A DNA stretch of 64,000 nt, from the NCBI GenBank assembly GCA_902582765.1, contig CACHTK010000001.1:5870-69869 (forward strand). The letters are read 5' to 3'. This document shows positions 1,116-15,888 of the stretch, piece after piece (the first letter of the stretch is position 1; every line of letters starts with the position of its first letter). The position numbers and the translations under genes are program-made. This DNA is from an uncultured Pelagibacteraceae bacterium (GTDB lineage Bacteria; Pseudomonadota; Alphaproteobacteria; Pelagibacterales; Pelagibacteraceae). The notes beneath the pieces were generated by a model that was not told the DNA's origin, did not search any database, and saw only the letters and a program-made list of their open reading frames with translations.

Positions 1116-1266
1116 GTTTTTTGCTTTTATATTAGTCAAATAGATAAATTTCTAACTAAATACGTCATTTTCAAAGTTCTTGAGGATGTAAAAAAATATA
1201 ATTAGTTGAAAGACCCATAATGAACACGTTATACTATCTCTAACAATATTCTCAAGGGGGGAAATT

Positions 1267-2340
1267 ATGCGTAAAATTCTAATATTAATATTAATGTCGT
1301 TATTCTCATTTGTATCCATTGGAAATGCAGATGTGAATTTCGCAGGCAAAACAGTTACATGGGTTGTGCCATTTAAAGAAGGTGGTGGTACTAGTAGATT
1401 TGCAAGATTTATTCAACCTTTCTTAAAAAAATATTTACCTGGAAATCCTGATGTCCAAATCATGCACATACCAGGAGGTGGAGCTATTAAAGGTTCAAAT
1501 TATTTTGAAAAAAATGCAAAAGCAGATGGAACTTTTATTTTTGGATGCTCAACTTCAGTAATAGTTAATGTTGCGACTGGAAATCCACTTGTTAAATATA
1601 ATCTTAGTGAATACCGACCAGTAGTTTTGCTACCGCAAAATACTCATTGGTTCACACGTTCAGATTTAGCTGAGCCTCACGATCTATCAAAAATTAAAGA
1701 AAGAAAATTGGTTCTCTACGCATTGAAAACTCCTGCATCTGCAGATTTATTTCACATATGGATTTATGAGAAACTTGGTATCAAAGGAGCTAAACCTATA
1801 CCTGGTCTTTCATCTTCAGGAGGTTATCAAGCATTTCTAAGAGGTGAAATTCATCTAAGTTCACATGGTGCAGCGAATTATGTAAAAAAAGTTAAGCCAG
1901 AAATAGAAAAAGGAAAAGTTGTAGATTTAATGACATTAGGAATTATTGGAGCTGACGGTTCAGTTTCTAGAAATCCTTTGGCACCAAATGCACCTACATT
2001 TCCTGAAATGTATGAGAAGGTAAATGGTAAAAAACTTGAGGGTGATGACTTAGAAGCATACTATGCAATAGGTGCTGCATGGTCTCAAGCATCTAAAGCA
2101 ATGATGCTTCCAGCAGATGCATCCGATGAAATAGTAAAAGCATACAGAGATGCAGCTATTAAAATGACAAATGACCCAGAGTTTAAGGCTAAAGCTGTAA
2201 AAGCTCTTGGACCATTTCCATTAATCATAGGAGAAGAAGCTGGTGAAATTATTAAAAAGGCTGCAGTATTCTCTGATACTACTAAAAAGCAATTAAATGC
2301 AGCTCTAAAGAAACATAAATTCACATATAGAGTTCAATAG
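1267..2340 (+). CDS. tctC: Tripartite tricarboxylate transporter substrate-binding protein (TctC/Bug family)
   Basis: Signal peptide; FAGKTVTWVVPFKEGGGTS, HIPGGGAIKG, 'PNAPTFPE' Bug-family motifs; AGGGGG SD-like motif upstream. Confidence 0.85.
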   Translation: MRKILILILMSLFSFVSIGNADVNFAGKTVTWVVPFKEGGGTSRFARFIQPFLKKYLPGNPDVQIMHIPGGGAIKGSNYFEKNAKADGTFIFGCSTSVIVNVATGNPLVKYNLSEYRPVVLLPQNTHWFTRSDLAEPHDLSKIKERKLVLYALKTPASADLFHIWIYEKLGIKGAKPIPGLSSSGGYQAFLRGEIHLSSHGAANYVKKVKPEIEKGKVVDLMTLGIIGADGSVSRNPLAPNAPTFPEMYEKVNGKKLEGDDLEAYYAIGAAWSQASKAMMLPADASDEIVKAYRDAAIKMTNDPEFKAKAVKALGPFPLIIGEEAGEIIKKAAVFSDTTKKQLNAALKKHKFTYRVQ

Positions 2341-2356
2341 AACAAATAAAAAAAGT

Positions 2357-2386
2357 GCTGCTAGCTATTAGCTGGCAGCTTTTTTT
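2357..2386 (+). terminator. Intrinsic terminator/attenuator-like hairpin between tctC and tctA
   Basis: GCTGCTAGCT...AGCTGGCAGC stem followed by T7 and preceded by an A-run. Confidence 0.7.
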
Positions 2387-4372: not shown

Positions 4373-4384
4373 AAAAAATTTATA

Positions 4385-5179
4385 ATGACTGATGTTACAT
4401 TTCCAAATTTACCTTTCATAAAAAGAAAGGAAAAACCTCGGGAGACAGGTATAAATTATGTTAGAGCACCTGTAATGGTGGGAAATTGTATTGATGATTA
4501 CTTAGAAGCATATGCTGACCTAGTTGATATCTTTAAGATTTCTGGAAAACAAGGCGCAATGATGAGTAAAAAATCTCTTTTAAGGTTTATTGAAACTTGC
4601 AAAAAACATAGTGTTCAAGTTGCGCTAGGAAATCCAATTATGGACGTTGCATTATCTGGTGGTAAAGAAGTGGTAGATGATTATCTAGACACCGTTGTTA
4701 GTTTGGGCATTGATATTATTGAAATCTCTAGAATAGCTCGTTCATTAGATGATGACGAAATGTGTAGATTAATTGAAAACGCCTCAAGCAAGGGGATAAA
4801 AGTTATTAATGAGGTTGGTGTTGCGTTTGCACATTCCAAGGTTATTGAGGAAGAAATATTTATTGAAAGAATTAAAATGCAATCTAAAAGATTTCTTGAG
4901 GCAGGTTCATGGAAAATTTTACTAGAGTCAGAGGGTTTGACAGAAAATCTTGATACGAAAAATTATAGATGGAATACAATTGATAAAATTATTAGTCCAC
5001 TTGAGCTGAATCAATTTATGGTTGAGGCTGATGACCAGGATGTATTGTCAAAATACATAGAGATATATGGTCCAGGCATAAATATGATGGTTGATCATAG
5101 TAGAGTTCTCAAAATGGAAGATGCTCGAATAGGGTATGGACCATCACAATCTCTATGGGGTAAGGTTGTAAAATATTAA
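4385..5179 (+). CDS. Phosphosulfolactate synthase (ComA) family protein, divergent copy 2
   Basis: RKEKPRETGIN, DDYLEAYADLVDIFK, IIEIS, VINEVG, LEAGSWKILLESEG, YGPGIN match the ComA family pattern. Confidence 0.8.
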   Translation: MTDVTFPNLPFIKRKEKPRETGINYVRAPVMVGNCIDDYLEAYADLVDIFKISGKQGAMMSKKSLLRFIETCKKHSVQVALGNPIMDVALSGGKEVVDDYLDTVVSLGIDIIEISRIARSLDDDEMCRLIENASSKGIKVINEVGVAFAHSKVIEEEIFIERIKMQSKRFLEAGSWKILLESEGLTENLDTKNYRWNTIDKIISPLELNQFMVEADDQDVLSKYIEIYGPGINMMVDHSRVLKMEDARIGYGPSQSLWGKVVKY

Positions 5180-6891
5180 GCTAAATTAAATTTGAGTTGT
5201 AATTTTTTTAATATTTCATCATCAACATCATCCCATTGATTGAACTTCTTTTGTTTAATCATTTGTAAGGAAGGATAAGGGTTTATTTTATCAAACTCAC
5301 CCCACCTCCAATCTGGATATATATTAAAAATACCCCAAGTTTCTTTATTAAGGGAACATGAAAGATGAAGTACAGATGTATCTGCTGATATAACTAAATC
5401 CAAATTTTCTATTATAGAAGCAATTTCTACTAGATTATATTTTCCAAAATCTAATATGTTAGAATTTTCAAAATAATGCTTATCTCTTTCCCATATTTCA
5501 TTTTGTAATCCATAAAAGTTTATATCTAAAGATAAAATCTTGTCTAAACTTTTTAAAGGTACTGATCTAAAAGGCTGATTTGGACCATGAAAAGAACCTG
5601 ACCAAACTAATCCAACTTTAGGTTTAGAGTTATCAATCTTTTTACTCCAATTTTCTATTTGCACTTCATCTTTTTTAATCAAGATATCTTTGAAATCATA
5701 TTTTTCTTTATAAAAAAATTTAATTAATGAACCTAATGAAATTTTATAATCAAATTTCTTATCTTCCAGGGTTTCTATTGTTTCAATTTTTAAATTTTCA
5801 ATACCATTATTAAATAAATTAAAAATATTTTTACTTACAACAAAACTTACATTCTTAGATATTTTACAAAGTGAAATTATATATTTAGAAAATTGTATTG
5901 AATCACCTAAACCTTGTTCACTAAAAACAACTATGCTTTTTTTCTCTAAATTTTCACCGTTCCATTCTTTAGTTGAACTTAGAATATTCGTTAATTTTGA
6001 ACCCCTATATTCATAGTATTTCCATCCGTCTTCAAAGTTACCTTCATACAGAGATCTGATCCCAATATAATTATAAAAATTTCTATTATTCTTAAATTCG
6101 TCTCTGGAGCTATCAAGAAGATTTTTTGCATCTTTTTCATTACCCATATTAAAATAAAGACCAATAAGAGATAATTTAAATTTAAGTATATTTTTATTTG
6201 TAGATAGAATTTTTATTGCTTCGTCATATTCTTCATTAAGAATTTTATATTCTGCTTTATTATATAAAAATTCTATATATTTCTCATCTATGGTTTCTGC
6301 TAGTTTAAAAAATTCGTCTGATTTTTTGATATCTTTTAAATTAATATAATTTAGCAATAAATTATTAATAATAATTTTGTCATTTTTATTATAATTGTAA
6401 GCTTCTAAAAAAAATCTTAATGAAGTTTTAGGTTTATTATTTTTAAGGTATATACTACCTGCATTATTAAGAGCTTTTATTTTATTGGCACCATTACAAT
6501 CAATACATTTTATATAAAACTCTAAAGCTAATTTATTATTGTTATTTAATTCATGAGCATAAGCTAATTGATAATTATATAGATCAATTTCATTATTTAT
6601 TTCATAAAGTTTTTTTGCAAATTCTAAGAGTTTTTTTGGATTATTTTTTTTTAAATAAATTAAATATAAATTTTTTATTGGATCTTCAAAATTACTATTT
6701 AACAAATGTGAACTTAAAAAACTTTTTTCTGCAAGATCTAGGTTTCCTTCAAGAAAATTAATAACACCCTTAAAGTTGTTAATTAAATGTTTATTCTTAC
6801 TTTCTTCTTTTTCATATTCATTACAAAGATTAAGTGCTTTTACTAAATCTTTTGAGTTAATACTTTCTAATATTAACTTTAATTTATTCAT
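5176..6891 (-). CDS. TPR-repeat protein with C-terminal GT-B (family 9-like) glycosyltransferase domain
   Basis: N-terminal TPR helices; 'GWKYYEYR', 'WNGENL...EQGLGDSIQF', 'KVGLVWSG', 'LDLVISADTSVLHL', 'DWRW'. Confidence 0.8.
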   Translation of the reverse strand: MNKLKLILESINSKDLVKALNLCNEYEKEESKNKHLINNFKGVINFLEGNLDLAEKSFLSSHLLNSNFEDPIKNLYLIYLKKNNPKKLLEFAKKLYEINNEIDLYNYQLAYAHELNNNNKLALEFYIKCIDCNGANKIKALNNAGSIYLKNNKPKTSLRFFLEAYNYNKNDKIIINNLLLNYINLKDIKKSDEFFKLAETIDEKYIEFLYNKAEYKILNEEYDEAIKILSTNKNILKFKLSLIGLYFNMGNEKDAKNLLDSSRDEFKNNRNFYNYIGIRSLYEGNFEDGWKYYEYRGSKLTNILSSTKEWNGENLEKKSIVVFSEQGLGDSIQFSKYIISLCKISKNVSFVVSKNIFNLFNNGIENLKIETIETLEDKKFDYKISLGSLIKFFYKEKYDFKDILIKKDEVQIENWSKKIDNSKPKVGLVWSGSFHGPNQPFRSVPLKSLDKILSLDINFYGLQNEIWERDKHYFENSNILDFGKYNLVEIASIIENLDLVISADTSVLHLSCSLNKETWGIFNIYPDWRWGEFDKINPYPSLQMIKQKKFNQWDDVDDEILKKLQLKFNLA

Positions 6892-6942
6892 ATATAATCA
6901 ATTTAACTTTAAATTTTTATGCAATAATTTAAATAACAGTTC

Positions 6943-8163
6943 ATGTTAAATATATTAAATAAAAACATAAATTTAATTTCTTTTTTATTTTATTTTTTAA
7001 TTTTTACCTATGTTTATATCTTTTCTTTAAATAATATTATTAATCTTTGGACATTTAACGAACTTCATATCAATTATTCTGCAGGTTTTCTACCCAGAGG
7101 ATTGATTGGTACAATTATGCTTAAACTAGATAGTTTAGGTTTAGAAAAGAGAATTTTCTTTTCAAGTTTATTTTATATTTTTACAATTTTAAATTTTTTA
7201 TTATTCCTCAACATCCTTAAAATTAAATTTAAAAATGCTTTGATCTTTATTTTTTTTGTATTAAATCCAAGCTTTATACTCTTTAATTTTTATGATCTTG
7301 GAGGTTATGCAAGGTTAGAAATATTTGGTATTTTTTCATTATTATTACACACTTATCTTGCAATAATTGCTGATAGACAAAACGAAAAAATAATTTTTTA
7401 TAATAAATATTATTTCTTTTTAATATTTCCAATATTGATAGTGAATGTGCTTATTCATGAGGTAAATTTTTTTTTACTTCCATTTAATATAATTTTAACT
7501 TGGTTAACAATAACGAAACAAACTTCTAATTATGAAAAAATTAAATATTATCTCCCATACTTAATATTTATACCTATAGCATTTTATTTCTGGTTTAATC
7601 CAATAACAGCAGAAAAAGCACTATTAATTTTTGATCAAATTGAAAACAAGCAAAATATTAATGCATCAATTATAGAGTCAATTGGTATGCCTATTTTATT
7701 TAGAAGTGAATTTTCTTATATGATCAATCCCTTAACAAATTTATTTAAATATTTATTCATTTTTTTATTTTATCTTACTCCTGTTCTAATCATGTTTCAT
7801 TGGGTTGATCCTTTTACAAAACGTAAGATTTTTTTAAACATTTTAGTTATTTTGCCTCTTTTTTTATTATTTTATATAGGAAGAGATTGGGGTAGATGGA
7901 TACATATTATATTATTTGTAGTTTTCTGTATCAATATTTACTTAATAAAAAATCAGAATTACTCAATTTATAAAAATAAAATATTAGTTTTATTTTTTAC
8001 AATGTTAATTCTATTTCAATTTACATTTACTAGAATACCTCATTGTTGCAATTTAGTAGAAAAAAATATTAGTATTACAGGAGGAATCATATCAAAAATA
8101 ATTGTTTTTAATAATTTAATTAATAATAAGATTGATGTTAAGTCTCGGTTTAAAAGTTTCTGA
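6943..8163 (+). CDS. Polytopic membrane protein, possibly GT-C-like
   Basis: About 10 hydrophobic segments; NYSAGFLPRGLIG, IHE and DWGRW motifs; adjacent to a polyprenol-phosphate sugar synthase. Confidence 0.55.
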   Translation: MLNILNKNINLISFLFYFLIFTYVYIFSLNNIINLWTFNELHINYSAGFLPRGLIGTIMLKLDSLGLEKRIFFSSLFYIFTILNFLLFLNILKIKFKNALIFIFFVLNPSFILFNFYDLGGYARLEIFGIFSLLLHTYLAIIADRQNEKIIFYNKYYFFLIFPILIVNVLIHEVNFFLLPFNIILTWLTITKQTSNYEKIKYYLPYLIFIPIAFYFWFNPITAEKALLIFDQIENKQNINASIIESIGMPILFRSEFSYMINPLTNLFKYLFIFLFYLTPVLIMFHWVDPFTKRKIFLNILVILPLFLLFYIGRDWGRWIHIILFVVFCINIYLIKNQNYSIYKNKILVLFFTMLILFQFTFTRIPHCCNLVEKNISITGGIISKIIVFNNLINNKIDVKSRFKSF

Positions 8164-8175
8164 GCAGTTATTTAA

Positions 8176-8895
8176 ATGAATTTACAAAAATCAAATAAAA
8201 AAAAAATTTTAGTCTTTTCTGCTACTTATAATGAGGCTGAAAATATAAGTGAATTTATAAATTCAATTATAAATCATAATAGTAATGTAGAAGTTTTAAT
8301 CATAGATGATAATTCTCCAGACAATACATCACACTTAATCGAAGATTTAAAAAAAAAATTTCATCAAATTAATTTAATAACAAGAAAGGGGAAATTGGGC
8401 TTAGATACAGCTCATAAAGAAGCATATAATTATGCTCTGAAAAATAATTTTGATTATCTAATTACTATGGATGCCGATCTTTCTCATGACCCGAAAGAAA
8501 TAAGTAATTTTATAAGTTATTTGAATGATTATCCATTTGTTATTGGATCAAGATATATTGAAGGAGGCAAATGTGAGATGAAAGGTTTTAGGTTATTTAT
8601 AAGTTACTTTGGTAATAAATTTATAAAGTTTGTTTTAAAATCAAAATGTACAGAATTTACAACCTCTTATAGGGGTTATAATTTAAAAAAACTTATAAAT
8701 TTTAATCTAAATATTGTGAACAGTGCTGGTTATAGCTTCTTTATGAGTATTATATTTGAACTAGAAAGAAGAAATTTTGATATTAAAGAGATTCCAATTA
8801 CTTTCTATGAGAGAAATGCAGGCAAATCGAAAATTCAAAGAATTGAGATTTTTAGAACTTTGAAAAATTTATTATTAAATTGGTTTAAAAAATAA
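8176..8895 (+). CDS. Polyprenol monophosphomannose synthase-like GT2 (DPM1-like)
   Basis: TYNEAENI, IIDDNSPD, ITMDADLSHDP, VIGSRY, KEIPITFYERNAGKSK. Confidence 0.9.
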   Translation: MNLQKSNKKKILVFSATYNEAENISEFINSIINHNSNVEVLIIDDNSPDNTSHLIEDLKKKFHQINLITRKGKLGLDTAHKEAYNYALKNNFDYLITMDADLSHDPKEISNFISYLNDYPFVIGSRYIEGGKCEMKGFRLFISYFGNKFIKFVLKSKCTEFTTSYRGYNLKKLINFNLNIVNSAGYSFFMSIIFELERRNFDIKEIPITFYERNAGKSKIQRIEIFRTLKNLLLNWFKK

Positions 8896-8910
8896 TATGG
8901 ATTAATTAAT

Positions 8911-8957
8911 TTGTTCAATTATAAATATTATTATAAATAACCATGAAATTCATTAAT
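8911..8957 (+). promoter_or_regulatory. Probable native tRNA-Leu promoter/leader; related copies at 13787-13833 and 15756-15802
   Basis: TTGTTCAATTATAAATATT...CATGAAATTCATTAAT precedes all three tRNA-Leu 5' ends with a few substitutions. Confidence 0.55.
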
Positions 8958-8996
8958 GCCCTCGTGGTGAAATTGGTAGACACAAAGGACTTAAAA
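8958..8996 (+). repeat. tRNA-Leu 5'-half direct repeat, copy 1 (att core, attL-like)
   Basis: 39 nt identical to 15803-15841; identity ends exactly at the end of the anticodon loop CTTAAAA. Confidence 0.95.
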
Positions 8997-9122
8997 AACA
9001 TAGGGTAGAGTAATTTTATAGTCTCATACTGTCTCAGACAGTCTTAAATCCCATTAAATCCTACACTTTAAAAAAACCTTTAATTATTTTTATTGGAAAA
9101 TATGAATAATAAATTTTCTCAA

Positions 9123-9141
9123 ACTAGAAGTGGACTAGAAG
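9123..9141 (+). repeat. Left arm-type repeat pair of cassette 1 (ACTAGAAG-tgg-ACTAGAAG)
   Basis: 11-bp period; same motif at 13731-13750. Confidence 0.75.
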
Positions 9142-9170
9142 CTAGGTGGATATAATAATATACTTTATTT

Positions 9171-10382
9171 ATGAATTGGATGGGATTTTGGAGAGCGCTT
9201 ACAGATACCACTGAGATAACAGTTATAGTAGCTGTAATAGTATTTGTATTCACATACTCAATCTTTACTTATTTTTCTACAGACGCTGACAAAGCTCTTA
9301 GGTATGCTAGATTTACACCTTCATTACTAGTTTCGATTGGTATATTTGGAACATTCCTAGGAATATTTTTTGCACTAGTTGATTTTAATGTAAATAGAGT
9401 AGACGAAAGTATTCCAGAGCTTTTATCAGGATTAAAAGTTGCTTTTGGAACAAGTATAGTTGGATTATTTTTAAGTTTAGCCTTTAGAGCAATAATTTTA
9501 TACAAACCCAAAAAAATTAAATCTACTGAAGAGGCTGATGTAAAAGATCTTTTAGCAAAGATGACTGAGGTAAAAGATGCAATTTCTGCTGATAATGAAA
9601 GCTCAGTAATTACACAATTACAAAAACTAAGAAGTGAAACTATTGATAGTTTAAAGGAAATGCAAAAATCTTTCTCAGAATTTGCAGCTGAAATGTCTCA
9701 AAATAACGTCAATGCATTAATAGAAGCTGTTCAACAGGTTATGGAAGATTTTAATGCTAAAATAAATGATCAACTTGGTGAAAGTTTTAAAGAATTAAGT
9801 TCATCTGTTCAAAACCTTGTGGAATGGCAAAATAATTACAAGACACATGTTGAGACTTTGAATGATCAGTTACAAACAGCTATATCAGGCATTACAAGTT
9901 CTCAAGAGTCACTTAAACAGATTTCAGAAAATATGGAGAGCCTCCCTAAATCAACTGAAGCATTAAAAGAAATTATGACAACAGTACAAGGACAAATTGA
10001 TAATTTGAACAATCAATTAGATGCTTTTGCACAAATGAAAGATAAAGCAGTTGATGCGATGCCAACAATTGAGAAAAATTTAAATGAAATGACCGAAAGT
10101 TTATCAAATTCTGTATCTAGTATAGAAAATATGTCTACAGAAATAAGAGATAGCGTTAAACAATCTATTAAAGAGACAAACGATATGCTTATTAATCAAA
10201 TCAAAGGATTAGACGAACAAATGCAAAAGGAAGTGACCAAAATTGTAGAAATTATGGGATCAAATTTAGCATCATTGTCTGAAAAATTTGTTAGCGATTA
10301 TTCTCCATTAACTAACCAACTTGTGAATTTAGTAAATTCTCTAGGAAGTGTTAAGAAAAAAACAAACAAAAAACCTGAATGA
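9171..10382 (+). CDS. zorA: Zorya anti-phage ZorA (MotA-like membrane domain plus long helical tail)
   Basis: Three TM segments with PSLLVSIGIFGTFLGI...GLKVAFGTSIVG, followed by about 290 aa of coiled-coil-like tail; overlaps the zorB start (ATGA). Confidence 0.88.
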   Translation: MNWMGFWRALTDTTEITVIVAVIVFVFTYSIFTYFSTDADKALRYARFTPSLLVSIGIFGTFLGIFFALVDFNVNRVDESIPELLSGLKVAFGTSIVGLFLSLAFRAIILYKPKKIKSTEEADVKDLLAKMTEVKDAISADNESSVITQLQKLRSETIDSLKEMQKSFSEFAAEMSQNNVNALIEAVQQVMEDFNAKINDQLGESFKELSSSVQNLVEWQNNYKTHVETLNDQLQTAISGITSSQESLKQISENMESLPKSTEALKEIMTTVQGQIDNLNNQLDAFAQMKDKAVDAMPTIEKNLNEMTESLSNSVSSIENMSTEIRDSVKQSIKETNDMLINQIKGLDEQMQKEVTKIVEIMGSNLASLSEKFVSDYSPLTNQLVNLVNSLGSVKKKTNKKPE

Positions 10383-11080
10383 AATTAAAAGCATTATTTC
10401 AACAACAGGATGATCAAGACGACCAGTGGATATCAATTGCCGACATGATGGCTGGATTGATGATTGTTTTTTTATTCATAGCAATTGTAAATCTTAAAGA
10501 CCAAATTGATAAATTGAGAAGTTTTGAGATATTACAAGATAGAATTTATAATGAGCTTTATGATGAATTCGAAGATGATTTAAAAAAATGGGTAGCTGAA
10601 ATCGATAAAGAAACTCTAACAATCTCTTTTAGGGAGCCAAAAATTCAGTTTTCTACTGGTTCTTCAGAAGTTAAAAGTGAATTTAAAAATATTTTAAACA
10701 ATTTTTATCCAAGATATCTAAATGTTTTATGGGACTTTAGAGAGGATATTGAAGAACTAAGAATAGAGGGTCATACTTCTTCAAGATGGCAAAAAGCTTT
10801 AACTATTGATGAGGCATATATTAAAAACATGGGTCTATCACAAGACCGCTCGAAGAATGTTTTGATATATATTCTTGAACTAAATTTAGGAACTAACAAG
10901 AATTGGGCTAAAGAGAAGATTGTGGCTAACGGCATGTCATTCAGCAAATTGTTATTAAAAGAAAATGGAGATGAGGATGCAATTAGATCCCAAAGAACAG
11001 AGTTTAGGGTGAAAGTTGATAGTGCTTATATAATTGAAAGACTTAGAAAAGTTTTTCAAGAAAGAAAAAATGAAACTTAA
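10379..11080 (+). CDS. zorB: Zorya ZorB (MotB-like TM plus OmpA-type peptidoglycan-binding domain)
   Basis: WISIADMMAGLMIVFLFIAI with the conserved Asp; IEGHTSS, NMGLSQDRS, RTEFRV OmpA_C motifs. Confidence 0.88.
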   Translation: MKLKALFQQQDDQDDQWISIADMMAGLMIVFLFIAIVNLKDQIDKLRSFEILQDRIYNELYDEFEDDLKKWVAEIDKETLTISFREPKIQFSTGSSEVKSEFKNILNNFYPRYLNVLWDFREDIEELRIEGHTSSRWQKALTIDEAYIKNMGLSQDRSKNVLIYILELNLGTNKNWAKEKIVANGMSFSKLLLKENGDEDAIRSQRTEFRVKVDSAYIIERLRKVFQERKNET

Positions 11081-11963
11081 CCACACATTTCCAGAATTAG
11101 AAAGTTTGATCAATAAAATGGGTGCTAAAAAGACTGTTTGGAAATCTGGCGTTAAGTATGAAAAAATAATTATTCAAAAATTATTATCTGTTGAAGGTGT
11201 TGACGCGAAATTAGATGACATAAAAATGGATGAACATGGCTTGATGTATCTAAATAATGAGCCAGTGGTTCTTTTTATAAAAGATCAATGGATTTCGGCT
11301 GATGAAATCAGAAGAGATCCGCTTGGCGGAAAAGGATATAGATTTCATATAACTGGAACATGTAAAACAATTGAACAAATGCAAAGAAGAAAAAGGTACG
11401 ATAGATATACTTTTACAGCTAATCAAAGTGGTAAATTTTCTGTAATTGCAAGAGAATCCAAGCATTCAAATAAAAAAATTAAATTAACAACACCATTAGC
11501 AGTTTGTATGAATTGTTTAATAGATCTAGAATATGACGGAGCAGGCTACTCATCTTCCGGAAGACCAAACACTGAAGCACGACAAGCTAGAGATTCTTTT
11601 AATATAAAATCTTTTTTTAAAAATTTTGTCCAAACTTTAATAAATAGACCTAAATATTCTGAAATGAGTTATCCTGATCCAGAATATACTCCTGATTTTA
11701 GAACAACCTCTAAAAAGTTAAAAGAAGCGTGGGGTTATAAATGTAGTAGATGCAAGGTTGATCTTTCATTATTAAGTCACAGAAAAATGATTCATTGTCA
11801 TCACAAAGATGGAAATCCTGGTAACAATGGTGAGACTAATCTTGAGGTTTTGTGTATTTGTTGTCATGCAGAAGAAGGAATGCATTTAATTAGACCAAAA
11901 CATATGAGAGAACAATTTGAGAAATGCAAAACTTTAAAACAAGAACAGGGTATCAAAATATAA
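11070..11963 (+). CDS. zorE: HNH endonuclease, ZorE-type effector of type II Zorya
   Basis: C-terminal CSRC...HCHHKDGNPGNNGETNLEVLCICCH HNH/zinc motif; third gene after zorAB; ATG at 11070 overlaps the end of zorB. Confidence 0.78.
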   Translation: MKLNHTFPELESLINKMGAKKTVWKSGVKYEKIIIQKLLSVEGVDAKLDDIKMDEHGLMYLNNEPVVLFIKDQWISADEIRRDPLGGKGYRFHITGTCKTIEQMQRRKRYDRYTFTANQSGKFSVIARESKHSNKKIKLTTPLAVCMNCLIDLEYDGAGYSSSGRPNTEARQARDSFNIKSFFKNFVQTLINRPKYSEMSYPDPEYTPDFRTTSKKLKEAWGYKCSRCKVDLSLLSHRKMIHCHHKDGNPGNNGETNLEVLCICCHAEEGMHLIRPKHMREQFEKCKTLKQEQGIKI

Positions 11964-11972
11964 TTGATCAAG

Positions 11973-12013
11973 ACATTGCAGGATTTTATACGATAACTAG
12001 AACTTGAGCAGAC
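11973..12013 (+). repeat. Degenerate internal copy of the cassette right-end motif
   Basis: AGGATTTTATACGATAACTAGAA (11980-12002) matches 13715-13737 at 20/23 positions. Confidence 0.65.
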
Positions 12014-12077
12014 AAAATAATATGCTTTTTCTCTCTTATCTCTCGTACATAGAGATATAATATTATAGATTACCTTT

Positions 12078-12242
12078 ATGGACAAATTTGAAATTTCATT
12101 AATCCAAGCAAGTGAAATTATTGAAATGGGTAATGGAGAATTAGATAAGGGTTTAGAGCAGATTAATAAAAAAGGATGGAAGATAATAGATGATTTTATT
12201 GATCCGCACACTGGTGAAAAATATTTTAAAATTGAAAAATGA
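12078..12242 (+). CDS. Small 54-aa hypothetical protein (below the ORF-track cutoff)
   Basis: MDKFEISLIQASEIIEMGNGELDKGLEQINKKGWKIIDDFIDPHTGEKYFKIEK; TGA overlaps the next ATG (ATGA); TATAAT upstream. Confidence 0.6.
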   Translation: MDKFEISLIQASEIIEMGNGELDKGLEQINKKGWKIIDDFIDPHTGEKYFKIEK

Positions 12243-12625
12243 AAATTTTAAAATTAACATTTTTGTCAGTTCTATTTATAATATTATTACTTCCTGCATC
12301 ATGTTCGACAATTTGGTCTGTTAATGAAATTTTAGGTAGGAATACCTACGATAACCCTGCATTTAAAGATTCACCATTTTATACCACTAATGATGAAATT
12401 GGTTTTGTTACAGATTATTGTAAAAAAAATAACTATTTTGGAAGAACTGGAACTGAAGAAGAAAAACTAAGAAAATGTATAAGTGGGGAATTGAGAAATC
12501 AAAGCTTAGCCTGGATGTTGGATGGCTTCATGTTTTATTTTAGCTTGATTGTAATACCTATATTTCTCTTTTATCTTTATTTTTATTATAAATGGCTAAA
12601 AAAAAATTATTTTAAAAAAGCTTAA
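12239..12625 (+). CDS. Hypothetical membrane protein / possible lipoprotein
   Basis: N-terminal hydrophobic stretch ending in LPASC, two further Cys, and a C-terminal TM helix. Confidence 0.6.
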   Translation: MKILKLTFLSVLFIILLLPASCSTIWSVNEILGRNTYDNPAFKDSPFYTTNDEIGFVTDYCKKNNYFGRTGTEEEKLRKCISGELRNQSLAWMLDGFMFYFSLIVIPIFLFYLYFYYKWLKKNYFKKA

Positions 12626-12626
12626 A

Positions 12627-13709
12627 ATGAAAAAATTTTACCTATTCATAAAAGTTATGACTCTATTAACATTTATATGTTCATATTCATCGGCAGAAAC
12701 TTTTCAAAAAGAACTATCTCAATTAAATACACTTAATGATGTAACAAAATGTTTAAAAAATCATTTAAAGCCCATGGGTGAGAAAGATGCTAGAGCCTAT
12801 TGTATTAATAAAAATATAAAAAAAGTGGATGAATTAAAAAACGTTATACATGGGTGGGGTGAATGGACCGAGGGATCTAATGGTTTTTATAAGAGTTTTG
12901 GTATTAAGATTTCAAATTTACATCCTAATGTAATTTTTGGATCAATAAAAATAAGTATAAATTTGAAACCAAGTAAATCAGATTCAGGAGTCAAAAAGTA
13001 CGAAAAATACTTAGGAACAGGACAAAGTATTGAATTAGATTTTAACAATTTGTTTATAGATGAATACATCAAATTTCCCGAATATTCTTCTTTTATTTAT
13101 AATGATATATCTGATTTAAATATCCCAAATGGTGAAATATCAAGCTGGACCATATTAGAAGGCAAGGCAATAAAAATTGCTAATTATAAAAATATTTTTA
13201 TGAAAAATGATCTTGGTAATCTTGAAAAATGTATAAAATTTAATTCTAAACCAAAAGATTTTTTTAAAAATGGAAATCTTTTAAAACGTGTTGATATTAA
13301 ATCCGCATGTCTTTATGAGCTTAGTGAGCAAGATAATAATATATACGATAAACTAGATTTAAAAATTTTAAAGAAAAATGAAGAAATAGCAATTTCACTT
13401 GAAAATAAAATTGATAATGATTTTATAATTACAGCAGGAAATTTATTAATAGAACTCTCTAATTGTGATAATAAAAAAGCAAAAAAAGAAGGCGAGGATA
13501 GTGATAATATTTTTGATAAATATGGTACTTTCATTGAGGGCGTAACATCACCTGGATATTTAATGCGGCAATTTACAAAACATGAGTTTGAAAAATATTT
13601 AATGCCAGGTGAAAAATTTATAACACCATTTGCTAATTCTGATAGGAGCATGAAGTATTGTGATTACAAACCAGCCATTCAAACTGTGAGAATTTTAAGT
13701 ATAGAATAA
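12627..13709 (+). CDS. Hypothetical exported protein with apparent two-fold internal repeat
   Basis: Signal peptide (SSA-ET); Cys-pair helix plus beta-rich segment occurs twice. Confidence 0.65.
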   Translation: MKKFYLFIKVMTLLTFICSYSSAETFQKELSQLNTLNDVTKCLKNHLKPMGEKDARAYCINKNIKKVDELKNVIHGWGEWTEGSNGFYKSFGIKISNLHPNVIFGSIKISINLKPSKSDSGVKKYEKYLGTGQSIELDFNNLFIDEYIKFPEYSSFIYNDISDLNIPNGEISSWTILEGKAIKIANYKNIFMKNDLGNLEKCIKFNSKPKDFFKNGNLLKRVDIKSACLYELSEQDNNIYDKLDLKILKKNEEIAISLENKIDNDFIITAGNLLIELSNCDNKKAKKEGEDSDNIFDKYGTFIEGVTSPGYLMRQFTKHEFEKYLMPGEKFITPFANSDRSMKYCDYKPAIQTVRILSIE

Positions 13710-13711
13710 TC

Positions 13712-13833
13712 TATAGGACTTTATGGGATAACTAGAAGCAGACTAGAAGCCAGGGAGATAAAATAAAAAAAATTTACTTATTCCTCTTGTTCAATTATAA
13801 ATATTGGCATAAACACTCATGAAAATAACTAAT
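13712..13833 (+). repeat. Right end of cassette 1 (arm repeat pair, A-tract and tRNA promoter)
   Basis: Gap-free match to 15681-15802 at 103/122 positions by manual count. Confidence 0.9.
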
Positions 13834-13872
13834 GCCCTCGTGGTGAAATTGGTAGACACAAAGGACTTAAAA
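13834..13872 (+). repeat. tRNA-Leu 5'-half direct repeat, copy 2 (junction between cassettes)
   Basis: 39 nt identical to copy 1 and to the intact tRNA 5' half. Confidence 0.95.
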
Positions 13873-13999
13873 GCCGAGGGATAGAACTTTAAGTCAGTCC
13901 ATAGTAGTCCAAGGTAGTTTAAAATATCCTATAAAATCACATAACTTTAATTTAACCTTTAACAAATATAATAAAATTAAGCTGGTTTAATATCTCAAA

Positions 14000-14019
14000 A
14001 CCAGTACCAAACCAGTACC
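14000..14019 (+). repeat. Left arm-type repeat pair of cassette 2 (ACCAGTACC-aa-ACCAGTACC)
   Basis: 11-bp period; same motif at 15700-15719. Confidence 0.75.
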
Positions 14020-14041
14020 TAAAAAGATAATATGTAAAAAC

Positions 14042-15673
14042 ATGAAAAAAAATTTACTTATATTTTTATTATTTATTTTAAGTACCAGTATCTCTTTGGC
14101 AAAGAATGATGAAATTATAACTTTAGAAGAAATACAAGATAATCTCATTAAAATGGAAGTTGAGAATAATCGTATAAAATGGTTTAAAGGTGGAGAAACT
14201 ATCTCAGCAGCTGAAAGCATTTCATTAAGCGAGAAGAAACAAGAAAAATTAGAAAAAAGAAGTCATTTAAAAAAGTCTTCACAATCTGCATGTGAAGGTG
14301 GGTCATCAATGAATGATCCAGAATTACAAAAGATTTATTGTCCAGCGATGATAATTAAGAGAGTTTTTTCACGAAATGAAAGGGCAGAAATAAAAAGGCC
14401 TGGAGATATATTTTATGCATTATCAGCGATAGAACGACTAATTTTTTCAAGTAGTAATAAATTTGTGACTACGCAAGATGCATTTAAAAAAAATGGAAAA
14501 ATTTATTATATGTGGTCAGATTTTAACAATAAATATAACAAATACGATGGTCCATATGTGGAAGTTGGCTCAAAAGATAATTGTGTTAGGTGGTTATGGT
14601 TTTATGATAATCGATATTTGTGTACAGATTACTCTAAATATACATTAAAAAAACTAGAAAAATTTAAAAAAAATCCAAATAATGAAAAAGTCTTAGGGAG
14701 ATATCTAATTAAATATATCCATAACGTAAGATTAGTAAAAAGTATCAGAGAAAAAATAGGTACCTCAAATTATGATTTAATAGGCGATATGTTAAACGCG
14801 AGTGTCAAAGATGTAATTAAAATAAAAGTACCTTCACAAACACTTGAACGTAGAAAGCATCTAAAAGAATACTCCCAAATACTTTTTGATATCAAAAAAA
14901 AAATTGAGGAAGATAAGTTTAAATCAATAGATAAAAGTATTTCAAAATTATCAAAAAAATATAAAAAATTACAAAGTTTGAAGCCTAATTCTTACAGAAC
15001 AGATAAGCAAGTTGATGAAGCGATTGATCTAATTTTTGATTTAAATAAACTTATTGAAAAGAGCTCTTCAAGTGCTGAAGTAAATAAAGAAGATAGAATA
15101 ACTGCTATTGCCTCTATAGAGTTTATGGATTCGTTGATTGATTCAATTCTTAGTATAATACCAAAACAATATAAGAGTGTCCCTAATAAACAACTAGGCA
15201 AAGATTTATTTGATGATGATGATTTAGACGAACTAGAAAAAATCATAAATAACATGATAAAAAAAAACTATGTGATTAAAAATGCTAAAATGACATGGAG
15301 CAAGAATACAATTAATAAATATATTGATACATCTATTATATTAAACAAATTTGATCAGCTAGGCATACAAGACAGTCTCAACAGAACATTTACAGAAGAG
15401 TCTGCTTTAAATGTTGCGCACGAACATATTGATAATAATTTAGATAAAAAAATTTTTAAAGATGTCAAAAAGATTGTTGCAAGTGTTGATAGAGGTAAAT
15501 TGGATAGTATAACTAGAGAAGTATCTCAAACTACTAAAGAGGTATCTAAAATAGCTTCAGAAATGTCTCAAAATTCCACTTTTAAATCTACAGTAACCCA
15601 ATCATATCCAGATCCGAAATTTGGAGGACAAAGTTTAAAAAAACTAATAAGAGCAGGAATAATAAAAAGATAA
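14042..15673 (+). CDS. Hypothetical exported protein, helical C-terminal half
   Basis: Signal peptide (SLA-K); four Cys in the N-terminal half; Lys/Glu-rich helical C-terminal half; 543-aa ORF. Confidence 0.7.
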   Translation: MKKNLLIFLLFILSTSISLAKNDEIITLEEIQDNLIKMEVENNRIKWFKGGETISAAESISLSEKKQEKLEKRSHLKKSSQSACEGGSSMNDPELQKIYCPAMIIKRVFSRNERAEIKRPGDIFYALSAIERLIFSSSNKFVTTQDAFKKNGKIYYMWSDFNNKYNKYDGPYVEVGSKDNCVRWLWFYDNRYLCTDYSKYTLKKLEKFKKNPNNEKVLGRYLIKYIHNVRLVKSIREKIGTSNYDLIGDMLNASVKDVIKIKVPSQTLERRKHLKEYSQILFDIKKKIEEDKFKSIDKSISKLSKKYKKLQSLKPNSYRTDKQVDEAIDLIFDLNKLIEKSSSSAEVNKEDRITAIASIEFMDSLIDSILSIIPKQYKSVPNKQLGKDLFDDDDLDELEKIINNMIKKNYVIKNAKMTWSKNTINKYIDTSIILNKFDQLGIQDSLNRTFTEESALNVAHEHIDNNLDKKIFKDVKKIVASVDRGKLDSITREVSQTTKEVSKIASEMSQNSTFKSTVTQSYPDPKFGGQSLKKLIRAGIIKR

Positions 15674-15680
15674 AAAACAT

Positions 15681-15802
15681 TATAGGATTTTATGGGACAA
15701 CCAGTACCTGACCAGTACCTAGTGAGATAAATTAAAAAAATTTTACTTATTCCTCTTGTTGAATTATAAATATTAGCTTAAACACTCATGAAATTCATTA
15801 AT
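15681..15802 (+). repeat. Right end of cassette 2 (arm repeat pair, A-tract and promoter driving the intact tRNA)
   Basis: Colinear with 13712-13833. Confidence 0.9.
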
Positions 15803-15888
15803 GCCCTCGTGGTGAAATTGGTAGACACAAAGGACTTAAAATCCTTGCCATTTATGGAGTGCCAGTTCGAGTCTGGCCGAGGGCACCA
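15803..15888 (+). tRNA. tRNA-Leu (TAA)
   Basis: GCCCTCG/CGAGGGC acceptor stem, AAGGA-CTTAAAA-TCCTT anticodon arm, long variable arm, GTTCGAG T-loop, encoded CCA. Confidence 0.97.

What the first reader, a model, noticed from the sequence alone, without database searches (positions are those of the whole stretch)
9171..11963. Type II Zorya anti-phage system as cassette cargo in a SAR11-like genome
Seen: overlapping zorA-like (MotA TM plus long tail), zorB-like (MotB Asp plus OmpA domain) and HNH nuclease genes with no frameshifts. Known: ZorAB plus the HNH protein ZorE defines type II Zorya, and streamlined SAR11 genomes are generally thought to be poor in dedicated defence systems. Inference: defence is delivered here as a swappable tRNA cassette, possibly moved by integrases of the same phages it blocks.
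Basis: partly seen in the sequence, partly recalled or inferred. Interest (0 to 1): 0.75.

Follow-up and report, generated by a model that had tools for sequence, protein, structure and literature searches.

The report
Zorya II defence cassette in SAR11
A complete three-gene type II Zorya anti-phage system sits in a SAR11 (Pelagibacteraceae) genome on a small integrase-free cassette spliced into a tRNA-Leu gene; the same cassette occurs in other SAR11 cells, which shows one way these streamlined ocean bacteria gain and swap phage defences.

Summary
Window 9171-11963 holds three overlapping, intact genes. Their best matches are the type II-specific PADLOC models ZorA2 (2.9e-88), ZorB2 (1.5e-74) and ZorE2 (1.9e-57), and the solved type II ZorA5B2 complex 8VVI.

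The host is SAR11. The same operon lies at the same locus in Pelagibacteraceae single-cell genomes AG-447-E20 (98.6% nucleotide identity) and AG-337-P03 (72.5%).

The cassette reading also holds. The operon is bounded by exact 39-nt copies of the tRNA-Leu(UAA) 5' half, with att-like arms and no recombinase. In both relatives the unit is zorABE alone (about 3.2 kb). This window has an unrelated 1.7-kb two-gene module added after zorE.

More distant SAR11 Zorya copies sit in cassettes at two other sites: the tRNA-Pro 3' half and the 5' end of a small protein gene.

Zorya is rare: 2 of 401 family species genomes sampled. It is under purifying selection (dN/dS 0.02-0.13 among closer SAR11 variants).

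One point needs revising. Pelagiphages such as HTVC105P do use the same tRNA core, but the cassette arms resemble those of small elements carrying a large tyrosine recombinase (satellite, VEIME or tycheposon-like), not phage attP.

This is a new member of a known defence family on a vehicle this scan has already met in other SAR11 genomes. Mobility and defence activity are inferred, not shown.

The parts
8911..8957 (+). Conserved upstream segment (TTGTTCAATTATAAATATT...CATGAAATTCATTAAT) that precedes every copy of the tRNA-Leu 5' half; possibly a promoter for the tRNA
   Evidence: Repeated at 13787-13833 and 15756-15802. Absent upstream of the cassette-free tRNA-Leu of relative G013.
8958..8996 (+). 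Left copy of the tRNA-Leu(UAA) 5' half, 39 nt, ending in the anticodon loop; the attL core
   Evidence: Exact copies at 8958, 13834 and 15803, the last being part of the intact tRNA.
8997..9170 (+). Left arm of the Zorya cassette. It holds 10-bp phased AGTCTC-type repeats (9020-9049), the inverted motif TCCCATTAAATCCTA (9049-9063), a tandem ACTAGAAG pair (9123-9141) and TATAAT (9151-9156) 15 nt before the zorA start
   Evidence: Read from the sequence. The same 'type A' arm occurs in L003, L004 and nine other cassettes with different cargo.
9171..10382 (+). zorA: MotA/ExbB-like membrane subunit, 3 TM segments plus a 285-aa helical tail, 403 aa
   Evidence: PADLOC ZorA2 2.9e-88. NCBIfam ZorA2 7.1e-57, below its equivalog cut-off. 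PDB 8VVI_F 2.8e-39. Hydropathy.
10379..11080 (+). zorB: MotB-like subunit with an N-terminal TM segment, a conserved Asp (WISIADMM) and an OmpA-like peptidoglycan-binding domain, 233 aa
   Evidence: PADLOC ZorB2 1.5e-74. PDB 8VVI_A 1.6e-38, with alignment. Pfam OmpA 2.1e-5.
11070..11963 (+). zorE: HNH nuclease effector, 297 aa from ATG 11070; the ORF finder's TTG at 11034 is probably not the start
   Evidence: PADLOC ZorE2 1.9e-57. NCBIfam ZorE 1.4e-35. HNH residues invariant in 21 homologues. In the predicted fold, residues 199-297 match HNH nucleases weakly: EcoKMcrA Z 5.8, rmsd 4.9, 71 aligned.
11980..12003 (+). Internal copy of the right-end motif (AGGATTTTATACGATAACTAGAAC); the junction between the Zorya module and the added module
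   Evidence: In AG-447-E20 the alignment jumps from window 11994 to window 13684 inside this motif.
11995..13683 (+). Added module that is not part of Zorya: a 128-aa lipoprotein-like ORF (12239-12625) and a 360-aa exported ORF (12627-13709), both of unknown function
   Evidence: Absent from the Zorya cassettes of L003 and L004. A relative of 12030-12625 lies next to tRNA-Leu in G004 with a different right-end repeat. No family or Atlas match.
13714..13833 (+). Right end of the cassette: TAGGACTTTATGGGA (inverted partner of 9049-9063), tandem ACTAGAAG pair (13731-13749), GAGATAAAATAA, then the conserved tRNA-upstream segment
   Evidence: The same design with at least 12 different tandem 8-9-mers occurs in 20 relatives' arrays.
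13834..13872 (+). Second copy of the tRNA-Leu 5' half; right boundary of the Zorya cassette and left boundary of the next cassette
13873..15802 (+). Neighbouring cassette: type B left arm, tandem ACCAGTACC pair at both ends, and one 543-aa exported ORF (14042-15673)
15803..15888 (+). Intact tRNA-Leu(UAA), followed by nadK, a DmdA-like gene and core genes

Best explanation
Window 9171-11963 encodes a complete, probably functional type II Zorya system.

How the defence should work, inferred from studied homologues:
- ZorA and ZorB form an inner-membrane, ion-driven ZorA5B2 motor. ZorB's OmpA-like domain anchors it to peptidoglycan.
- Phage attack on the envelope activates the motor.
- The long ZorA tail then recruits the soluble HNH nickase ZorE to the entry site, where it nicks incoming DNA. 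At high phage load it also nicks host DNA.

How the operon is carried, shown by sequence comparison:
- It is the cargo of an integrase-free cassette of about 3.2 kb inserted in the anticodon loop of tRNA-Leu(UAA).
- The cassette brings its own copy of the tRNA's upstream region and 5' half, so the tRNA stays intact. It also keeps both att-like arms.
- In this genome a second, unrelated two-gene module has been added after zorE, and another cassette lies between it and the tRNA.

How the cassette moves, inferred: it is mobilised in trans by large tyrosine recombinases of small satellite-like elements that target the same core and share the arm design, and/or it is exchanged between cells by homologous recombination across the conserved repeats of about 175 nt. 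Either way, Zorya is a rare, shared item of the SAR11 population's defence pool.
For: Identity:
- Type II-specific models are far stronger than type I or III models for ZorA and ZorB; ZorE matches the five ZorE2 models and otherwise only a weak homing-endonuclease model.
- NCBIfam names the same three proteins.
- The best solved structures are the type II ZorA and ZorB of 8VVI.
- The ZorB Asp and the ZorE HNH residues are kept.
- The ZorE C-terminal domain folds like HNH nucleases.
- A separate TolQ-like gene exists elsewhere in the genome, so this is not the housekeeping stator.

Constraint:
- Intact reading frames in all SAR11 copies.
- dN/dS 0.02-0.13 against four closer SAR11 variants and up to 0.36 (zorE) against the 56% relative, with saturated dS.
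- GC 0.30-0.31, like the core genome at 0.314.

Linkage: a zorE homologue lies beside zorAB in 37 of 45 loci; the other 8 are truncated.

Mechanism by homology: PMC11890865 reports that ZorE is a nickase brought to the membrane by ZorAB on infection, and that PG binding, tail and ion flow are all needed.

Cassette:
- Exact 39-nt tRNA halves at 8958, 13834 and 15803.
- A Zorya-only unit between such halves in AG-447-E20 and AG-337-P03, with different neighbours.
- ACTAGAnn tandem pairs at both ends of the Zorya unit in several of the metagenome copies at 74-94% ZorA identity.
- Other att contexts: tRNA-Pro 3' half and the 5' end of a small protein gene.
- An empty site in G013.
- About 47 of 111 genus genomes that hold this tRNA sequence have 2-3 copies of the half.
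- Cargo of 20 such arrays includes type I and IIG restriction-modification and GmrSD.

Mobiliser:
- L009, a 7.7-kb contig with a terminal repeat, and L088, integrated at tRNA-Leu in a congener, each carry a 545-551 aa tyrosine recombinase plus a primase.
- They share the phased AGTC repeats and the tandem-repeat + GAGATAAA arm design.
- L088's tandem repeat, ACCAGCACA, recurs in the integrase-free cassettes L079 and L091.
Against:
- Scores are below NCBIfam's narrow equivalog cut-offs: 193 against 700, 178 against 400 and 123 against 600.
- Pfam hits to MotA_ExbB and OmpA are below gathering scores, and Pfam gives no HNH hit.
- No recombinase was found in this genome, which is only 70.6% complete.
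- No recombinase-bearing element with the Zorya cassette's own arm type (A) and ACTAGAA repeat was found.
- The SAR11 Zorya cassette was not found in IMG/VR viral contigs.
- The ZorE fold matches are weak (Z at most 5.8), and its N-terminal 190 residues match nothing.
Confidence: 0.8

Rival explanations
1. The cassette no longer moves by site-specific recombination. It is a decayed remnant of an integrase-bearing element, and its patchy distribution comes only from homologous recombination between SAR11 cells. The conserved tRNA-half and arm repeats, or the flanking core genes, serve as the homology.
For: - No recombinase in the cassette or the genome.
- No cognate recombinase-bearing element for arm type A with the ACTAGAA repeat.
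- The junction of the added module lies inside a repeated motif, as expected for recombination between repeats.
- The ComA-TTT block sits on different sides of the Zorya unit in different cells, and in L003 it lacks a proper left arm.
- High recombination in SAR11 is cited in PMC13712998.
Against: - Both arms are kept almost intact across Zorya copies whose synonymous sites are saturated. That suggests selection on the ends.
- Left-arm type and right-end repeat co-vary across many cassettes.
- Zorya appears at three unrelated att cores. Homologous recombination at one locus does not explain that.
Confidence: 0.25
2. The cassette is moved by the integrases of temperate pelagiphages (HTVC105P type), that is, by phages it may defend against.
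For: - HTVC105P, HTVC109P and uvMED S35-C6 carry 43-46 nt of the tRNA-Leu(UAA) 5' part about 80 nt downstream of int.
- Integration of HTVC105P, 109P and 119P into this tRNA in HTCC7211 was shown experimentally (bioRxiv 10.1101/410191).
- Several IMG/VR contigs that hold the half encode HTVC105P-like integrases.
Against: - Phage attP arms share none of the cassette's arm motifs: 0 of 13 phage loci have the phased AGTC repeats.
- The phage inverted repeat, GAAGTAGCGGA / TCCGCTACTTC, is different.
- The phage core runs 4-7 nt further into the tRNA than the cassette core.
- The large recombinase of L009 and the phage integrase are barely alike: 27% over 56 aa, E 0.009.
Confidence: 0.1
3. The genes are an ordinary MotAB/ExbBD/TolQR-type stator with an unrelated HNH gene beside it, not a defence system.
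For: Pfam gives only weak MotA_ExbB (0.0019) and OmpA (2.1e-5) hits. NCBIfam lists MotB models at about 5e-5.
Against: - Type II Zorya models score 40 to 80 orders of magnitude better.
- The best solved structure is a Zorya II complex.
- The HNH gene is always linked.
- A canonical TolQ-like gene lies elsewhere in the genome.
- The operon was found in 2 of the 401 family species genomes sampled, which does not fit a housekeeping role.
Confidence: 0.02
4. The operon is present but inactive, a hitch-hiking relic on the cassette.
For: ZorA is short (403 aa) compared with the 550-position NCBIfam ZorA2 model. No expression data could be obtained.
Against: - The structurally solved type II ZorA of 8VVI is even shorter, at 378 aa.
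- All three frames are intact in every SAR11 copy, and dN is well below dS in every pair where dS could be estimated.
- Catalytic and ion-path residues are kept.
Confidence: 0.05

Closest known systems
Type II Zorya of Sulfuricurvum kujiense (structure 8VVI) and the type II Zorya studied in E. coli (Mariano et al. 2025, PMC11890865; system first defined by Doron et al. 2018, cited from my own knowledge)
   Same: Same three genes in the same order. ZorA has three TM segments and a long tail. ZorB has the Asp and an OmpA-like domain. ZorE is an HNH nuclease. Best sequence matches are to 8VVI chains and to type II PADLOC models.
   Different: - Divergent: below NCBIfam equivalog cut-offs.
- About 30% GC.
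- Host is a streamlined SAR11 (Pelagibacteraceae) bacterium.
- Carried on an integrase-free cassette inside a tRNA gene.
- No functional data.
Marine phage satellites (VEIMEs, Eppley et al. 2022, PMC9618062) and tycheposons of Prochlorococcus (Hackl et al., bioRxiv 10.1101/2020.12.28.424599)
   Same: - Small elements with a tyrosine recombinase and a primase/helicase that integrate in tRNA genes of oligotrophic marine bacteria and leave partial tRNAs and stacked remnants.
- L009 and L088 fit this description and share the arm design with the cassettes.
- Defence cargo is reported on such elements.
   Different: - The Zorya unit has no recombinase or replication gene.
- It duplicates the 5' half of the tRNA plus its upstream region, where the usual case (Williams 2002, from my own knowledge) is the 3' part.
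- Zorya was not among the defence and interference genes named in the VEIME passages I read.
- The tycheposon preprint does not mention SAR11.
CIME-type (cis-mobilisable) elements: att-flanked islands that lost their integrase (concept from streptococcal ICE/IME work, from my own knowledge) and the 'gene cassettes' at tRNA-linked islands of SAR11 gMED (Molina-Pardines et al. 2025, PMC11796062)
   Same: Bounded by att core repeats, no recombinase, stacked in tandem at a tRNA. The SAR11 paper reports partial tRNA repeats marking cassette insertion in four islands and notes almost no integrases.
   Different: That paper does not use the word 'defense'. The arm architecture and tandem-repeat pairs seen here are not mentioned in the passages I read.
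attP of temperate pelagiphages HTVC105P and HTVC109P (Zhao et al., bioRxiv 10.1101/410191)
   Same: Same target: the 5' part of tRNA-Leu(UAA), with the element supplying the 5' part of the tRNA.
   Different: Different arms, a small (297 aa) integrase family, and a 40-kb phage rather than a 3-kb cassette.

Membership tests
Type II Zorya (ZorA-ZorB-ZorE) | ZorA: MotA/ExbB-like membrane domain followed by a long helical cytoplasmic tail | tested here: met
   PADLOC ZorA2 2.9e-88, with model PDLC00637 aligned over 15-415 of 420 positions. 8VVI_F 2.8e-39 over residues 41-388. Three TM-like segments and a 285-aa tail.
Type II Zorya (ZorA-ZorB-ZorE) | ZorB: N-terminal TM helix with the conserved Asp, and a C-terminal OmpA-like peptidoglycan-binding domain | tested here: met
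   ZorB2 1.5e-74. Alignment to 8VVI_A keeps the Asp: WISIADMM against WISLSDMM. Pfam OmpA 2.1e-5, just below the gathering score.
Type II Zorya (ZorA-ZorB-ZorE) | ZorE: HNH nuclease as the third gene; type I instead has ZorC/ZorD and type III has ZorF/ZorG | tested here: met
   ZorE2 1.9e-57. HCHH...N...CxxCH and CxxC are invariant in 21 homologues. HNH-like fold of residues 199-297, weak. No ZorC, D, F or G hit among the 9 ORFs scanned.
Type II Zorya (ZorA-ZorB-ZorE) | The three genes form one conserved operon | tested here: met
   4-nt and 11-nt overlaps. zorE lies beside zorAB in 37 of 45 loci, and the other 8 are truncated.
Type II Zorya (ZorA-ZorB-ZorE) | ZorA5B2 assembly and protection against phage | not testable with these tools
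   Needs expression, structure determination and phage challenge. Inferred only from homology to 8VVI and PMC11890865.
Integrase-free att-flanked cassette (CIME-like; remnant or derivative of satellite/tycheposon-like elements) | Bounded by direct repeats of the integration core | tested here: met
   Exact 39-nt tRNA-Leu 5' halves at 8958 and 13834, and the intact tRNA at 15803. The same holds in L003 and L004.
Integrase-free att-flanked cassette (CIME-like; remnant or derivative of satellite/tycheposon-like elements) | No recombinase gene inside the unit | tested here: met
   No integrase family among the 9 ORFs scanned between 5176 and 15673. No PF00589 hit and no tblastn hit to three recombinases in the whole, 70.6% complete, genome.
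Integrase-free att-flanked cassette (CIME-like; remnant or derivative of satellite/tycheposon-like elements) | Arms related to those of recombinase-bearing elements that use the same site | tested here: met
   Phased AGTC repeats after the core, and a tandem 8-9-mer followed by GAGATAAA before it, are shared with L009 and L088. Caveat: the exact arm type A of the Zorya unit has no recombinase-bearing partner in the data searched.
Integrase-free att-flanked cassette (CIME-like; remnant or derivative of satellite/tycheposon-like elements) | Presence/absence and neighbour polymorphism at the same site among relatives | tested here: met
   Empty site in G013. Zorya-only unit with different neighbours in L003 and L004. 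One to three halves per genome in 111 of 151 congeners.
Integrase-free att-flanked cassette (CIME-like; remnant or derivative of satellite/tycheposon-like elements) | Excision or circular intermediate observed | not tested
Pelagiphage HTVC105P-type attP derivative | Shares the core sequence with phage attP | tested here: met
   43-46 nt of the tRNA-Leu 5' part lie next to int in L032 and L033. Integration is shown in bioRxiv 10.1101/410191.
Pelagiphage HTVC105P-type attP derivative | Shares arm sequences or motifs with phage attP | tested here: not met
   0 of 13 phage loci have the phased AGTC repeats. The phage inverted repeat is GAAGTAGCGGA / TCCGCTACTTC.

The most novel reading that the evidence does not exclude
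SAR11 may run a recombinase-in-trans cassette exchange system. Integrase-free cassettes would carry arm types and matching tandem 8-9-mer repeats, each read by a cognate large tyrosine recombinase of a satellite-like element. These cassettes would dock in the 5' parts of tRNA and protein genes while rebuilding the target and its promoter. Whole defence systems such as Zorya II would then circulate through the population as a shared 'pan-immune' cassette library. This would work somewhat like an integron but is built from lambda-type att sites.
Probability: 0.3. Interest if true: 0.8.

Novelty: new member of a known kind. Interest (0 to 1): 0.55.

Why it matters
SAR11 is the most abundant bacterial group in the ocean. 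How it survives heavy phage pressure with a tiny genome, few known defences and almost no classical mobile elements is debated.

What this locus adds:
- A full Zorya II system exists in natural SAR11 cells. No held paper mentions Zorya together with Pelagibacter, and only two incidental papers mention it with SAR11.
- It is rare per genome but widespread in seawater metagenomes: 20 runs from 12 studies hold near-identical parts.
- It travels as a compact, recombinase-free cassette that appears at three different docking sites.

This gives a concrete, testable case of population-level sharing of defence genes in a streamlined bacterium. It also gives a small 2.8-kb operon to test against cultured pelagiphages.

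Tried and rejected
Contexts of the metagenome homologues came from the search for related loci instead.
There is therefore no read-level test of excision, depth or expression.
- The SAR11 Zorya cassette was not found in IMG/VR; the only hit was a 33% relative.
- The pattern ACTAGAA-N4-5-ACTAGAA-N6-GAGATAAA has no match in viral contigs. No helper with the Zorya cassette's own repeat is known.
- Rfam gave nothing for the second att core. It turned out to be the 5' end of a small protein gene.
- The promoter and terminator scan is uninformative in this AT-rich DNA: 34 sites found against 31.7 expected.
- Pfam, NCBIfam, PADLOC and PHROGs gave no usable match for ORFs 12239-12625, 12627-13709 and 14042-15673 (the only hit was one weak PHROG of unknown function, E 0.0034, for the third); the Atlas, run only on 12627-13709, gave nothing either.
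- Foldseek against the PDB gave no hit at E of 0.001 or better for ZorE. VIA-align gave only Z of 5.8 or less, and only for the HNH domain.
- I considered an integron-type cassette and set it aside. The ends are lambda-type att sites built around a tRNA core, and no IntI-like gene or attC-like hairpin was seen. This was judged from the sequence and not tested formally.
- I considered a chimeric single-cell assembly and rejected it. Three independent single-cell genomes and many metagenome contigs show the same unit.
- The supplements of PMC13712998 are not held. I cannot exclude that its tables list a Zorya hit.

Full report
**What is there**

The flagged stretch holds three co-directional, overlapping ORFs with no frameshift: 9171-10382, 10379-11080 and 11034-11963.
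- zorA and zorB overlap by ATGA.
- The third gene most likely starts at ATG 11070, 11 nt before the zorB stop. Both the PADLOC and NCBIfam alignments begin at that Met.
- GC is 0.30-0.31, the same as the core part of the window at 0.314.

**Identity**

PADLOC's type II-specific models are by far the best matches: ZorA2 2.9e-88, ZorB2 1.5e-74 and ZorE2 1.9e-57. For ZorA and ZorB, type I and III models are tens of orders of magnitude weaker, and none of the 9 scanned ORFs hits ZorC, D, F or G. NCBIfam names the same three proteins, at 7.1e-57, 2.3e-52 and 1.4e-35. These scores are below its narrow equivalog cut-offs, so the system is a divergent member. Pfam alone would have missed it: MotA_ExbB and OmpA fall below gathering scores and there is no HNH hit.

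The best solved structures are chains F and A of 8VVI (2.8e-39 and 1.6e-38). This entry is the cryo-EM type II ZorA5B2 complex of Sulfuricurvum kujiense (PMC11890865).

- **ZorA:** three TM-like segments and a 285-aa tail. Its length of 403 aa is close to the 378 aa of the solved type II ZorA, so the short tail is normal for this subgroup.
- **ZorB:** keeps the Asp before its TM helix (WISIADMM against WISLSDMM) and has an OmpA-like domain.
- **ZorE:** carries CSRC...HCHHKDGN...NLEVLCICCH. In an alignment of 21 homologues, C225, C228, H242, H245, N257, C262, C265 and H266 are invariant. So are H93, C98, C146 and C149 in the N-terminal part.
- **ZorE fold:** an AlphaFold model (pLDDT 81.5) gave no significant Foldseek hit. 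With VIA-align, residues 199-297 matched a list dominated by HNH nucleases: EcoKMcrA Z 5.8 (rmsd 4.9, 71 aligned), GVE2 HNH Z 5.1 and Gme nicking HNH Z 4.6. This is weak but agrees with the motif. The N-terminal 190 residues matched nothing.
- **Not a housekeeping stator:** a canonical TolQ-like MotA_ExbB gene lies elsewhere in the genome.

**Linkage and constraint**

A zorE homologue lies next to zorAB in 37 of 45 loci fetched from genomes, metagenomes and viral contigs. The other eight end inside or just after zorA or zorB.

Against four closer SAR11 variants, dN/dS is 0.02-0.13 wherever it could be computed; against the 56% relative L005 it is 0.18 for zorA and 0.36 for zorE. dS is saturated (above 1.4), two zorB comparisons gave no dS estimate, and one comparison failed. 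All frames are intact. The operon has been kept by selection inside the SAR11 gene pool for a long time.

**Host**

- The genome is a 0.96-Mb, 64-contig, 70.6%-complete assembly at about 29% GC.
- Downstream of the locus lie nadK, a DmdA-like gene, RlmB, tRNAs and, judging by ORF sizes and order (not family-scanned), the tuf-rpoBC-ribosomal protein region.
- The nearest ZorA homologues in the species-representative genome collection are in 'uncultured Pelagibacteraceae' single-cell genomes: AG-447-E20 (99.5-100% ZorA identity by the two searches), AG-337-P03 (74%) and AG-913-N02 (56%).

So the 'SAR11-like' call is right.

**How common**

- ZorA was not found in 60 close relatives.
- A ZorA profile hit 2 of 401 family species genomes, including this one.
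- About 38 protein clusters at 70% identity or more exist in marine metagenomes.
- Twenty seawater or marine runs from 12 studies hold near-identical parts of the stretch.
- No held paper mentions Zorya together with Pelagibacter. Only two incidental papers mention it with SAR11.
- A 2026 DefenseFinder survey of 321 SAR11 genomes does not mention Zorya in its main text. Its supplements are not held.

**The vehicle**

The intact tRNA-Leu(UAA) is at 15803-15888. Its first 39 nt, up to the anticodon loop, recur exactly at 8958-8996 and 13834-13872, each time with about 50 nt of upstream sequence.

Between the copies lie two units. Each has:
- a left arm with 10-bp phased AGTC-type repeats and a 15-nt motif;
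- a right end with the inverted partner of that motif (TAGGAyTTTATGGGA), a tandem 8-9-mer, GAGATAAA and the tRNA-upstream segment.

The tandem 8-9-mer is the same at both ends of a unit. It is ACTAGAAG for the Zorya unit and ACCAGTACC for the next one. No recombinase is encoded in the units or anywhere in the assembly.

**Comparison with relatives**

*Same unit, different neighbours:*
- **AG-447-E20:** a Zorya-only unit, 98.6% identical to window 8888-11994, lies between two tRNA halves. The alignment then jumps to window 13684. The window therefore carries an extra 1.7 kb (11995-13683, two exported proteins of unknown function), joined inside a second copy of the AGGAyTTTAT motif.
- **G004:** a relative of that extra module sits alone next to tRNA-Leu with a different right-end repeat. 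It is an independent module and not part of Zorya.
- **AG-337-P03:** a 72.5%-identical Zorya unit is the only cassette at the tRNA.

*Copies further afield:*
- **Metagenome copies:** several of the copies at 74-94% ZorA identity keep ACTAGAnn pairs at both ends.
- **More distant SAR11 copies:** these sit in similar units at other cores. One is a 50-nt exact repeat of the tRNA-Pro 3' half in AG-913-N02. Another is the first 60 nt or so of a small protein gene.

*State of the site across the genus:*
- **G013:** this complete genome has the tRNA with an unrelated native upstream region and no cassette.
- **Across 151 congeners:** 111 hold the half and about 47 hold two or three copies 1-9 kb apart.
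- **Cargo of 20 such arrays:** type I and IIG restriction-modification, EcoRI-type methylase, GmrSD, caspase-like and trypsin-like proteins, a block of 11-12 pilin-like genes, and metabolic and transport genes.

Defence is thus one recurrent class of cargo at this hotspot.

**Who moves it**

Pelagiphages HTVC105P, HTVC109P and uvMED S35-C6 carry the same tRNA part just downstream of int. Their integration into this tRNA was shown experimentally (bioRxiv 10.1101/410191). The phage arms are different, however, and none of 13 phage loci has the phased AGTC repeats.

Two other elements do share the design:
- L009, a 7.7-kb IMG/VR contig with the tRNA half at both ends;
- L088, an 8.8-kb element integrated at tRNA-Leu in a congener.

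Each encodes a 545-551 aa tyrosine recombinase (54% identical to each other) and an AEP-type primase. Both share the phased repeats and the tandem-repeat + GAGATAAA design. L088's repeat, ACCAGCACA, recurs in the integrase-free cassettes L079 and L091.

Left-arm type and right-end repeat co-vary. Type A arms go with ACTAGAnn repeats, including Zorya and nine other cargos. Type B arms go with ACCAG, ACTTG and ACTGG repeats and equal L088's arm.

These elements fit the published marine phage satellites (VEIMEs, PMC9618062) and resemble tycheposons. I therefore favour trans-mobilisation by such recombinases. Homologous recombination across the repeats is a serious alternative or complement. No recombinase-bearing partner with the Zorya unit's own arm type was found, and no excision product could be looked for.

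**Standing**

This is a divergent but complete member of a known defence family, in a host where it appears unreported. It rides a kind of integrase-free tRNA cassette that earlier reports of this scan already described in other SAR11 genomes and that the literature notes briefly (PMC11796062). Shown here: gene identity, linkage, selective constraint, cassette boundaries, and polymorphism among cells. Inferred: the defence mechanism (by homology) and the mode of mobility.

Noticed in passing
L040:1-310 and 3250-3424; L050:1-380 and 3140-3520; L075:1334-1615 (minus): A second docking site for the same cassette design (right-end motif, tandem repeat, GAGATAAA). The repeated core is the start codon plus about 60 nt of a small (about 75-93 aa) conserved protein gene (MNKENASKLWKIIQEAGDYLVGQLPDHP...). 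Cassettes there also rebuild the 5' end of their target. There is no Rfam match.
   Followed up: partly
L005:931-980 and 4987-5063: In AG-913-N02 the Zorya operon (56% ZorA identity) plus two small ORFs lies between a 50-nt exact copy of the tRNA-Pro(UGG) 3' half and the intact tRNA-Pro. This is a classical 3'-end att island, again without an integrase.
   Followed up: partly
window 252-5183 versus L003:8742-13676: The block ComA-like / TctC / TctA / ComA-like (phosphosulfolactate synthase-like genes around a TTT transporter, the 'Tct-1' of PMC11796062) lies upstream of the cassette array here and in AG-337-P03. In AG-447-E20 it lies inside the array, between a tRNA half and the intact tRNA, with a right end but no proper left arm.
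   Followed up: partly
window 5176-8895: A very low-GC stretch (0.19-0.23) with a TPR + GT9 heptosyltransferase-like gene, an unknown 406-aa ORF and a GT2 glycosyltransferase directly upstream of the first tRNA half. It is probably surface-glycan island content.
   Followed up: no
L017:1-5129: An IMG/VR contig ends in a typical cassette right end (TTGGATTTTATAGGATAAC, CCTGTACAT x2, GAGATAAAATAA, tRNA half). Its cargo looks phage-related: SegE-like GIY-YIG endonuclease, zeta-toxin-like kinase, DUF6433, a methyltransferase, PhoH and two SHOCT proteins.
   Followed up: partly
L086:273-5579: One cassette at tRNA-Leu of a congener carries a run of 11 small ORFs. These are probably the source of the 12 N-terminal-methylation (type IV pilin-like) Pfam hits in the 103-ORF pool, but the pooled scan does not say which ORFs hit.
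   Followed up: no
window 11070-11640 (ZorE residues 1-190): The N-terminal domain of ZorE has invariant H93, C98, C146 and C149 across 21 homologues, which suggests a second metal site. It has no fold match in the PDB searches made.
   Followed up: partly
window 12623-12647, 13759-13783, 14010-14061, 15728-15752: The conserved right-end segment (TAAAATAAAAAAAATTTACTTATTC...) resembles the start regions of the exported-protein ORFs at 12627 and 14042 (ATGAAAAAA(A)TTTTAC.TAT). It may derive from, or mimic, a signal-peptide gene start.
   Followed up: no
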